A stretch of DNA of 9,181 bases, taken from IMG/VR virus record IMGVR_UViG_2548877011_000016. One strand, 5' to 3'. Positions 7,444-7,576 of the stretch are shown one piece after another. A program made the position numbers and the translations under genes. The notes under the pieces were generated by a model. That model ran no database searches. It worked only from the letters and a program-made list of their open reading frames with translations, and was not told where the DNA came from. The DNA is from a virus. Its lineage: Duplodnaviria; Heunggongvirae; Uroviricota; Caudoviricetes. Each line of letters opens with the position of its first letter. Position 1 is the stretch's first letter.

Positions 7444-7576
7444 CGTGATTTACCTTGTGAATCCGGTGTATTCCGGTGACAAATACGGTAAATCATCGGA
7501 TATGGGTAAAAACAGTTCCCACCGTTTTTAAACGGTATACACCGTTTTTTATATTGATGATTTGAAATGGAATTAT
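7444..7576. promoter_or_regulatory. alpA upstream control region with three ACCGTTT/AAACGGT boxes and two TCCGGTG direct repeats
   Basis: ACCGTTT (7521-7527), AAACGGT (7530-7536) and ACCGTTT (7541-7547) form overlapping inverted repeats; TCCGGTG occurs at 7462-7468 and 7472-7478. No unambiguous -35/-10 pair could be assigned by eye. Confidence 0.45.

What the first reader, a model, noticed from the sequence alone, without database searches (positions are those of the whole stretch)
7444..7576. Clustered ACCGTTT/AAACGGT boxes and TCCGGTG repeats upstream of alpA
Three 7-mers in alternating orientation within 27 bp can form two alternative hairpins or serve as operator half-sites, followed by two TCCGGTG direct repeats 10 bp apart nearer the alpA start. 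alpA is the usual induction-responsive activator in these islands, so this is a plausible site for helper-phage or SOS-dependent control.
Basis: seen in the sequence. Interest (0 to 1): 0.4.

Follow-up and report, generated by a model that had tools for sequence, protein, structure and literature searches.

The report
Conserved control boxes upstream of alpA
The repeated boxes in front of the satellite island's master switch gene alpA are real and strongly conserved, so they are almost certainly its control sites, which gives a concrete handle on the unsolved question of how a helper phage switches such islands on.

Summary
The three ACCGTTT/AAACGGT 7-mers plus a fourth, imperfect arm (AAACAGT, 7510-7516) form two tandem 18-bp dyads, AAACNGT-N4-ACCGTTT, at 7510-7527 and 7530-7547, 20 bp apart.

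In 40 distinct versions of this leader from 154 loci, the arms are nearly invariant. The 4-bp spacers and the flanks vary freely.

The TCCGGTG pair is a CCGG-N6-CCGG element. It is conserved 17-21 nt upstream of the alpA start codon in relatives down to 45% protein identity, including Pectobacterium, Edwardsiella and Erwinia. The dyads occur only in the E. coli clade.

Substitutions and a natural deletion of one 20-bp unit argue against the "alternative hairpins" reading of the dyads and for DNA operators. No usable sigma-70 promoter, LexA box, Ogr/Delta dyad or CII repeat is present.

My best model is an activator-dependent alpA promoter: a weak -10 (TACCGT), dyads centred near -41.5 and -61.5, and a CCGG element at the start of the transcript. 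The CCGG element would be either an AlpA autoregulatory site or a 5' stem-loop. The binding proteins and the transcription start are inferred, not shown.

This is a new member of a known kind of element. Interest is moderate.

The parts
7580..7603 (-). Intrinsic terminator (GGAAGCGGCA-GAAA-TGCCGCTTTT + T-run) ending the int-orf76 unit. It marks the upstream edge of the alpA control region.
   Evidence: Terminator scan. The helix keeps pairing through changes on both sides in relatives.
7530..7547 (.). Distal dyad, AAACGGT-ATAC-ACCGTTT on the + strand (perfect). Its centre is about -61.5 from the inferred transcription start.
   Evidence: The upstream arm is the most variable of the four (CGGT/CAGT/TGGT/CTGT/CGAT/CGTT). 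The whole unit is absent in variant L234.
7510..7527 (.). Proximal dyad, AAACAGT-TCCC-ACCGTTT on the + strand (one mismatch). Its centre is about -41.5 from the inferred start, and it overlaps any -35 element.
   Evidence: It is nearly invariant in 40 distinct leaders (diversity 0.01-0.07), while its 4-bp spacer varies.
7481..7495 (-). Invariant block TGATTTACCGTATTT. It contains the best -10 candidate, TACCGT (7490-7485), and the 5' arm of helix P1 (7495-7487).
   Evidence: Diversity 0.037. Its spacing to the dyads is fixed at 14-15 nt although the sequence in between is free. The -10 assignment is inferred.
7462..7478 (-). Tandem CACCGGAATA/CACCGGAT repeats on the sense strand (TCCGGTG on the + strand). 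This is CCGG-N6-CCGG at 7463-7476, which can act either as direct-repeat protein sites or as a 4-bp stem with a 6-nt loop.
   Evidence: It is conserved 17-21 nt (27 in L011) from the start codon in relatives down to 45% AlpA identity. Variants with three copies and with an N4 loop exist.
7446..7454 (-). 3' arm (GGUAAAUCA) of the possible long-range helix P1. It pairs with 7487-7495 and covers the two G residues of the Shine-Dalgarno AAGG (7456-7453).
   Evidence: 9-nt perfect inverted repeat and minimum-free-energy fold. Pair 7493:7448 is A-U, U-A or U.G in different clades, and C.A in one variant.
7237..7443 (-). The alpA-like gene (68 aa, winged-helix excisionase/regulator type), which is the regulated gene.
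   Evidence: NCBI annotators call it an AlpA family or HTH regulator.
7611..7841 (-). orf76, a conserved small gene between int and alpA. It is a candidate DNA binder, with no evidence either way.
   Evidence: 67-96% identity across the E. coli clades. Three-helix model with pLDDT 81. Only weak fold matches, Z no higher than 5.3.

Best explanation
The stretch 7444-7579 is the promoter and control region of alpA, the island's master switch. It has two layers.

(1) Two tandem 18-bp dyads (7510-7527 and 7530-7547) are DNA operators for a regulator that binds as a dimer or as paired monomers. No usable sigma-70 promoter is present. With the best -10 candidate (TACCGT, 7490-7485) transcription would start near 7477/7478. 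The dyad centres then fall at about -41.5 and -61.5, the classic positions from which activators recruit RNA polymerase. I therefore read the dyads as positive control sites. In this model alpA is silent by default and fires only when the binder is present. The binder would be AlpA itself (positive feedback), a helper-phage-induced factor, or both.

(2) The CCGG-N6-CCGG element (7463-7476) is the part shared by the whole AlpA-like family. It sits at or just after the inferred start, at a fixed distance from the ribosome-binding site. It is most likely the family's common autoregulatory site for AlpA, bound as tandem CCGGWWT repeats. When transcribed it also forms a 5'-terminal stem-loop.

Shown: the anatomy, the conservation pattern, the clade distribution, and the absence of other known motifs. 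Inferred: the transcription start, the sign of regulation, and the identity of every binding protein.
For: - Footprint. Arms are conserved (diversity 0.01-0.13), while spacers (0.26-0.58) and flanks (0.33-0.43) vary, across 40 distinct leaders from 154 loci. The module is present in 374 of 5426 complete E. coli genomes, including Nissle 1917 and ATCC 25922.
- Spacing. The distance from the dyads to the invariant block is held at 14-15 nt although the sequence in between is free.
- No promoter. No sigma-70-like promoter is found on the alpA strand in 7100-8100. In non-E. coli lineages a weak -10-like signal peaks 9-11 nt upstream of CCGG.
- DNA rather than RNA for the dyads. Single changes break the arm 1:arm 2 pairing in many sequences. 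No pair shows a change on both sides. One variant lacks a whole 20-bp unit.
- Specificity. The tandem-dyad pattern occurs in IMG/VR only in this island family: 49 of 50 hits, the other being a coding repeat.
- CCGG element. It is conserved in position across Enterobacterales. The 3' flanks of the two repeats match each other within lineages more than between lineages (30/54 against 22.2 expected, p 0.002), as expected for tandem sites of one protein.
- Published biology. [quoted passage not shown] Induction is helper-specific (10.1101/2022.09.08.507074).
Against: - There is no transcription start data. TACCGT is a poor -10, and the -41.5/-61.5 geometry depends on that guess.
- No binding protein is identified. 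AlpA-type winged-helix proteins usually bind direct repeats as monomers, not dyads.
- The dyad motif occurs nowhere else in the island. If AlpA bound it, AlpA's other targets would have to look different.
- A site at +1 to +17 is an odd place for a positive autoregulator. It would more naturally repress.
- One lineage has CCGG-N4-CCGG (8-bp period). This fits a hairpin better than sites phased by helical turns.
- The experimentally studied alpA promoter I could examine (EcCIMP1) belongs to a distant AlpA type (27% identity) and shows no similarity to this region. EcCICFT073 could not be located or compared. The published regulation is therefore an analogy only.
Confidence: 0.6

Rival explanations
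1. The dyads are repressor operators. In this reading an island-encoded or host repressor sits on the dyads, for example orf76 (made constitutively with int) or the Arc/YlcI-like protein. It blocks the -35 region. The helper phage then induces the island by removing the repressor, as happens with Stl in staphylococcal islands.
For: - The proximal dyad overlaps the -35 position of the inferred promoter.
- orf76 is conserved next to alpA in every E. coli clade that carries the dyads. It models as a small three-helix protein with a basic tail.
- An Arc-like gene is present at 6666-6857.
Against: - The core promoter is very weak, whereas repressed promoters are usually strong.
- orf76 has no significant fold or family match.
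- A homologue of orf76 also sits upstream of alpA in a lineage without the dyads (L013).
- The published Gram-negative PICI work found an activator and no clear master repressor (PMC6092414).
Confidence: 0.2
2. The CCGG element and the 9-bp inverted repeat (7487-7495 with 7446-7454) act as RNA. Read-through transcripts that escape the upstream terminator would fold back and hide the ribosome-binding site. Transcripts started at the true promoter, inside the helix, would lack the 5' arm and be translated, keeping only a protective 5' stem-loop. This would shield a self-activating switch from leaky transcription, as in IS10 and IS50. It could operate together with the operator model.
For: - The sense-strand leader folds better than shuffles (z -3.1, 1 of 200).
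- Pair 7493:7448 is A-U, U-A or U.G in three clades, with no mixed state among 40 distinct leaders.
- In 19 of 20 lineages the ribosome-binding site is predicted to be more open in a transcript starting 3 nt before CCGG than in one starting 75 nt upstream.
- The only variant of CCGG seen is TCGG, which keeps G.U pairing.
- The N4-loop variant fits a hairpin.
Against: - Measured against shuffled upstream sequence, occlusion of the ribosome-binding site is not significant across the family (Fisher p 0.05-0.08). It is absent for the window itself (0.40 against 0.41).
- Only one base pair covaries, and one variant carries C.A at that pair.
- The CCGG stem never shows a compensatory change.
- The arms also overlap the putative -10 and the ribosome-binding spacer, which could explain their conservation.
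Confidence: 0.25
3. The four arms act in the alpA leader RNA as alternative hairpins (1:2 and 3:4 against 2:3), forming an attenuator.
For: - The arms can pair in several registers. The fold gives a nested 1:4/2:3 hairpin.
- Arm 4 runs into a stretch of five U residues.
- Two departures from perfect symmetry keep G.U pairing on the sense strand.
Against: - Hairpin 1:2 is unpaired at one position in 7 of 15 aligned sequences. Variants CAGT, CTGT, CGAT and CGTT in arm 1 and ACAGTTT in arm 2 all break it. No pair has a change on both sides.
- A variant lacks unit 1 entirely.
- The 3:4 stem has only two G-C pairs and fails the terminator scan.
- There is no conserved promoter upstream of the arms. 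The TATAAT at 7577-7572 is not conserved.
- No Rfam family matches the region.
Confidence: 0.07
4. The boxes are an SOS (LexA) operator, or a helper late-activator site of a known type (P2 Ogr/P4 Delta TGT-N12-ACA, or lambda CII TTGC-N6-TTGC).
For: None from the sequence. Only the general expectation that island induction follows prophage induction.
Against: - No CTGT-N8-ACAG match with up to one mismatch in 7444-7620.
- No TGT-N12-ACA there.
- No TTGC-N6-TTGC there.
- alpA induction is reported to be independent of SOS (PMC6092414, PMC11773190).
Confidence: 0.02

Closest known systems
Late promoter PLL of satellite phage P4, which drives vis (the AlpA homologue)
   Same: - It is a weak, helper-responsive promoter in front of the AlpA-type gene of a satellite that sits next to its integrase.
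- Repeated boxes for a small winged-helix protein (helper P2 Cox) lie near it, 10-11 bp apart and in mixed orientation (PMC3936717).
- From memory, not checked here: PLL is also activated from an upstream dyad by Ogr/Delta and is autoregulated by Vis.
   Different: - No cox-box (TTAAAG/CNCA) and no TGT-N12-ACA dyad is present.
- The boxes here are 7-4-7 dyads with a 20-bp period.
- The AlpA-like protein is only distantly related, and the helper is unknown.
alpA promoters of EcCICFT073 and EcCIMP1 (Gram-negative PICIs)
   Same: The genes are in the same order (int, sometimes a small gene, alpA). Experiments there show two inputs, AlpA autoactivation and helper-dependent, SOS-independent induction (PMC6092414, PMC11773190). 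A terminator lies upstream of alpA in EcCIMP1 as well.
   Different: EcCIMP1 AlpA is 27% identical. Its upstream region has neither the dyads nor the CCGG pair. No cis-elements have been defined in those papers. EcCICFT073 could not be located for comparison.
Class I/class II activator-dependent sigma-70 promoters (for example CRP at -61.5 and -41.5)
   Same: There is no -35 element, the -10 is weak, and the dyads are centred about 41.5 and 61.5 bp from the inferred start, two helical turns apart.
   Different: The start is inferred, not mapped. The half-site AAACGGT matches no regulator I could test. There is no TGTGA-N6-TCACA.
Fold-back inhibition of read-through transcripts in IS10/IS50 (from memory)
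   Same: A sequence upstream of the true start can pair with the ribosome-binding region. Only transcripts entering from outside would be silenced.
   Different: Support here is one covarying pair. The family-wide test was not significant.

Membership tests
LexA (SOS) operator | CTGT-N8-ACAG dyad (consensus TACTGTATATATATACAGTA) overlapping the promoter | tested here: not met
   No match with up to one mismatch in 7444-7620. The five hits in the window lie elsewhere.
P2 Ogr / P4 Delta-dependent late promoter | TGT-N12-ACA dyad centred near -55 | tested here: not met
   The only two matches in the window are at 4774 and 7134.
Lambda CII-type activated promoter | TTGC-N6-TTGC direct repeat straddling -35 | tested here: not met
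   No match with up to one mismatch in 7444-7620.
Intrinsic terminator / attenuator | G+C-rich stem directly followed by a U-run on the transcribed strand | tested here: not met
   On the alpA strand only 7603-7580 qualifies. The 3:4 stem has two G-C pairs and is not called. The + strand call at 7530-7547 faces away from alpA.
Intrinsic terminator / attenuator | Base pairing kept through compensatory changes in relatives | tested here: not met
   No pair in the dyad helices has a change on both sides. Seven of 15 sequences are unpaired at one position of hairpin 1:2. Further disruptive variants are seen.
Protein operator (dyad) site | Half-sites conserved while the central spacer is free and its length fixed | tested here: met
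   Arm diversity 0.01-0.13 against spacer diversity 0.26-0.58. The spacer is always 4 bp.
Protein operator (dyad) site | Demonstrated binding of a protein | not testable with these tools
   Needs a gel shift or footprint.
Activator-dependent sigma-70 promoter | Mapped start, with the activator site centred near -41.5 or -61.5 | tested here: inconclusive
   The geometry fits only if TACCGT (7490-7485) is the -10. No start data exist. A weak -10-like peak is seen in relatives, and no consensus promoter is found.
Xis/AlpA/Cox-type recombination directionality factor sites | Two or more direct repeats with a 10-11 bp period | tested here: inconclusive
   The CACCGGAWT repeats are 10 bp apart, with two or three copies, and their 3' flanks evolve together. 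However, an 8-bp period occurs in L202/L300, and the CCGG core is palindromic.
Known RNA families (Rfam 15) | Covariance-model match | tested here: not met
   No match in 7237-7620 at E up to 1. C4 and isrK match elsewhere in the window.
Phage_AlpA (PF05930), for the regulated gene | Pfam gathering score of 21 bits | tested here: not met
   15.4 bits, E 0.017, although the alignment is full length. PHROG 66 matches at 8e-7. PDB 8c3t, an AlpA family protein, matches at E 0.95. I treat the gene as AlpA-like, not as a proven family member.

The most novel reading that the evidence does not exclude
The clade-specific upstream module is the landing site of a helper-phage-encoded or helper-induced DNA-binding protein, and so sets which phages can wake the island. 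Here that module is the two dyads. In other lineages it is a pair of direct repeats with a 21-22 bp period, such as ACTTCCAG or TACCAAC. The family-wide CCGG pair would be the AlpA feedback site. The alpA promoter would then be a modular two-input gate whose sensor half is swapped between lineages.
Probability: 0.2. Interest if true: 0.65.

Novelty: new member of a known kind. Interest (0 to 1): 0.42.

Why it matters
How a helper phage switches on alpA in Gram-negative satellite islands is stated as an open question in the 2018, 2024 and 2025 papers read here. None of them defines a cis-element.

This work maps a compact set of conserved elements in front of alpA in an island module carried by about 7% of complete E. 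coli genomes. The carriers include the laboratory-friendly strains Nissle 1917 and ATCC 25922. The elements separate into a clade-specific part and a family-wide part.

That makes the question directly testable. The dyads can be used as bait for pull-downs, mutated in reporters, and used to select helper escape mutants.

Tried and rejected
- **Dyad in phage genomes.** A scan of IMG/VR for the single perfect dyad gave only island copies and scattered hits (the recurring one checked lay inside a gene), and the scan stopped at 120 rows. BLAST of the region against 50,697 phage records gave nothing relevant. The tandem pattern gave only this island family.
- **One box family for everything (ACCG[T/G] boxes).** There is no enrichment of extra boxes upstream in non-E. 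coli lineages: 2 against 1.1 expected, p 0.29. Rejected.
- **Family-wide hiding of the ribosome-binding site.** The duplex test was weak for most lineages and the ensemble test was not significant. Kept only as a tentative rival.
- **orf76 as an identifiable regulator.** No Pfam, NCBIfam, PHROG or PDB sequence match. The fold model gave only weak matches.
- **Second CCGG-N6-CCGG at 3127-3140 as a second AlpA site.** It is an ordinary terminator stem.
- **Perfect TATAAT at 7577-7572 as the promoter.** It is not conserved in relatives.
- **The + strand promoter-like site at 7527-7555.** Its -10 is not conserved in the cq9 clade.
- **Comparison with experimentally studied promoters.** The CFT073 stretch I fetched was a lambdoid prophage, not the island. 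EcCIMP1 turned out to be unrelated in sequence.
- **Literature.** Searches for defined AlpA or Vis binding sites and for PDB entry 8C3T found nothing usable.

Full report
**Context.** The window is the integrase-proximal part of a phage satellite island of the PICI type, inserted at a tRNA-Pro gene of E. coli.

Reading on the minus strand, it carries the following features:

| Feature | Coordinates | Evidence |
|---|---|---|
| Tyrosine integrase | 7940-9181 | |
| Small conserved gene, orf76 | 7611-7841 | |
| Intrinsic terminator | 7603-7580 | |
| 68-aa AlpA-like gene | 7443-7237 | |
| Two-way terminator | 7178-7210 | |

Two small genes lie on the plus strand beyond the two-way terminator, one of them Arc/YlcI-like. 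Then comes the main leftward operon, with a C4/isrK immunity RNA, DUF4222, a RepA-type helicase, a small terminase-like gene and a capsid-like gene.

The int-orf76-alpA module occurs in 277 complete E. coli genomes at high identity and in 374 of 5426 at relaxed identity. Carriers include Nissle 1917, ATCC 25922 and O26:H11 11368. The module is joined to different downstream modules in different strains.

The 68-aa protein is only AlpA-like:
- It falls below the Pfam threshold, although the alignment is full length.
- It matches the PHROG family of excisionase/regulators.
- Its sequence family is small, with 100 representatives at E up to 0.001 among 1.8 billion.

**The observation.** The description can be improved.

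A fourth arm, AAACAGT at 7510-7516, pairs with ACCGTTT at 7521-7527. The element is therefore two tandem 18-bp dyads, AAACNGT-N4-ACCGTTT, at 7510-7527 and 7530-7547. They start 20 bp apart and each is flanked by A or T runs.

A cluster of three copies of one 7-mer within 30 bp is rare in shuffled windows (3 of 300). A 7-mer repeated 10 bp away is not rare (112 of 300). The case for the TCCGGTG pair therefore rests on conservation.

**Conservation within the E. coli clade.** I collected 154 loci with this leader from complete genomes, species-representative genomes, metagenomes and IMG/VR. They give 40 distinct sequences in three subclades, with 74-100% AlpA identity.

Nucleotide diversity by segment:

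| Segment | Diversity |
|---|---|
| Four dyad arms | 0.01-0.13 |
| Block TGATTTACCGTATTT | 0.04 |
| First CACCGGAATA repeat | 0.01 |
| Second repeat | 0.10 |
| Two 4-bp dyad spacers | 0.58 and 0.26 |
| 12 nt between the dyads and the block | 0.41 |
| Stretch upstream of the dyads | 0.33 |
| First alpA codons | 0.25 |

Spacer length, and the 14-15 nt distance from the dyads to the block, are held constant.

The proximal dyad is almost invariant. The distal dyad's upstream arm shows six states. One variant (L234, two loci) has lost exactly the distal 20-bp unit. Other variants carry three copies of the 10-bp CACCGGAATA unit.

**Are the dyads DNA sites or RNA hairpins?** The sense-strand RNA folds well (z -3.1), but the comparative data do not support pairing.
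- Hairpin 1:2 is broken at one position in 7 of 15 aligned sequences.
- No pair in any dyad helix shows a change on both sides.
- The larger set adds four more disruptive single changes and the unit deletion.
- The 3:4 stem is too weak to be called a terminator.
- No conserved promoter lies upstream of the arms. The perfect TATAAT at 7577-7572 is not kept in relatives.

Conserved arms with free spacers of fixed length are the signature of protein half-sites. I therefore read the dyads as DNA operators.

**The CCGG element.** Relatives of the AlpA-like protein at 45-65% identity were found in Pantoea, Edwardsiella, Pectobacterium, Brenneria, Erwinia, other Escherichia and metagenomes. None of them has the dyads.

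Most of them do have CCGG-N6-CCGG, or CCGG-N6-TCGG. Two have CCGG-N4-CCGG. The element ends 17-21 nt before the start codon.

The TCCGGTG pair is thus the family-wide element, and the dyads are a clade-specific addition. Other lineages carry different repeats in the same upstream place, for example ACTTCCAG or TACCAAC with a 21-22 bp period.

CCGG is palindromic, so the pair can be read in three ways: as direct repeats, as a dyad, or as an RNA stem.
- For tandem protein sites: the three bases after each CCGG resemble each other within a lineage more than between lineages (30 of 54 against 22.2, p 0.002). Copy number also varies by whole units.
- For a stem: the N4 variant, the fact that the only core variant is TCGG (wobble-compatible), and predicted stabilities of -4.5 to -10.8 kcal/mol.

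I cannot decide between these readings.

**Promoter.** No sigma-70-like promoter is found on the alpA strand.

In the non-E. coli lineages a weak -10-like signal peaks 9-11 nt upstream of CCGG. This would start transcription a few bases before the CCGG element.

In the window the best candidate is TACCGT (7490-7485). It lies inside the invariant block and gives a start near 7477/7478. That places the dyad centres at about -41.5 and -61.5.

This geometry, together with the missing -35, is why I favour positive control. It is an inference that rests on an unmapped start.

**A possible fold-back helix.** A perfect 9-nt inverted repeat (7487-7495 with 7446-7454) encloses the CCGG element and covers part of the ribosome-binding site.

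The single variable position in each arm covaries:
- A-U in 17 distinct leaders.
- U-A in 19.
- U.G in two.
- C.A in one.
- No mixed states.

If the start is near 7477, the 5' arm exists only in transcripts that read through the upstream terminator. The helix would then silence leaky transcripts of a self-activating switch.

The idea is attractive but weakly supported. Occlusion of the ribosome-binding site is not significantly stronger than with shuffled upstream sequence, either across the family or for the window itself.

**Who binds?** This is unknown.
- AlpA and orf76 are both conserved across all clades that carry the dyads, so co-occurrence does not separate them.
- orf76 models as a three-helix protein with a basic tail but has no informative match.
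- The dyad motif is found nowhere else in the island.
- The dyad motif turned up in no phage in the collections scanned. This argues against a helper regulator whose own operators look the same, but does not exclude one.

Published work on more distant PICIs shows that alpA receives two separate inputs, AlpA itself and a helper-dependent, SOS-independent signal (PMC6092414, PMC11773190). It also shows that induction is helper-specific (10.1101/2022.09.08.507074).

In P4, helper protein Cox binds repeated boxes upstream of the promoter that drives the AlpA homologue (PMC3936717). These are analogies only. The EcCIMP1 promoter shares no sequence with this one.

**Known motifs excluded.** No LexA box, no Ogr/Delta dyad, no CII repeat and no Rfam family match in the region.

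**Verdict.** The finding is a real, conserved, two-part control region of alpA.
- The operator reading is supported.
- The hairpin reading of the dyads is not supported.
- The SOS reading is refuted at the motif level.
- Helper-phage control remains plausible but untested.

It is a new example of a familiar kind of element. Its value lies in making an open question about satellite induction experimentally tractable.

Noticed in passing
window 6217-6402 (- strand): Rfam C4 antisense RNA (6217-6304, 73.8 bits) and isrK (6326-6402, 66 bits) lie in the leader of the icd-like/replication operon. This is a P1/P7/P4-type RNA immunity system and probably controls the main operon separately from alpA.
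   Followed up: partly
window about 6643-6690: Two GTGGTCACCT boxes about 38 bp apart lie in the divergent region between the Arc/YlcI-like gene (6666-6857, +) and the C4 leader. They are likely a separate operator pair, unrelated in sequence to the alpA dyads.
   Followed up: no
window 7611-7841 (- strand): orf76 is a conserved 76-aa gene between int and alpA, 67-96% identical across the E. coli clades. It models as a three-helix bundle (pLDDT 81) with a basic GGRPKKWR tail. It has no family or fold assignment. A recognisable homologue occupies the same position in at least one distant lineage (L013).
   Followed up: partly
window 672-697: Direct repeats AAACCGTATAACT / AAACGTATAACT lie in the non-coding right end of the island. 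They may be integrase arm-type or excision-factor sites.
   Followed up: no
L004 (E. coli 2013C-3033), about 400 bp inserted between the terminator and the dyads: The insertion carries four TTTTGAGACAACAT iterons and an AT-rich stretch, so it looks like a replication origin or another binding array. The dyads and everything downstream are kept.
   Followed up: no
L147, L148, L150, L151 and many IMG/VR loci (cq9 subclade): The alpA start codon is GTG (CATAGTG) instead of ATG (CACGATG) in one subclade.
   Followed up: no
L011, L012, L198, L200, L201, L285, L288, L296, L192, L299 (upstream of alpA): Other AlpA-like lineages carry lineage-specific direct repeats, mostly with a period of about 21-23 bp (ACTTCCAG, ACTTCAA; TACCAAC is irregular in L012), where the E. 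coli clade has the dyads. This suggests an exchangeable upstream module.
   Followed up: partly
window 3127-3146 (- strand): The only other exact CCGG-N6-CCGG in the window is the stem of an ordinary intrinsic terminator (AGCCGG-AGCAAT-CCGGCT followed by T7) after the 81-aa gene.
   Followed up: yes
window 1-498 and 969-2681: The window begins in the 3' end of an autotransporter-like gene outside the island. The island's last genes are a capsid-like (308 aa) and a small-terminase-like (208 aa) protein. The same int-alpA module in ATCC 25922 is joined to a different packaging module, with a 351-aa major capsid protein and a head decoration protein.
   Followed up: partly
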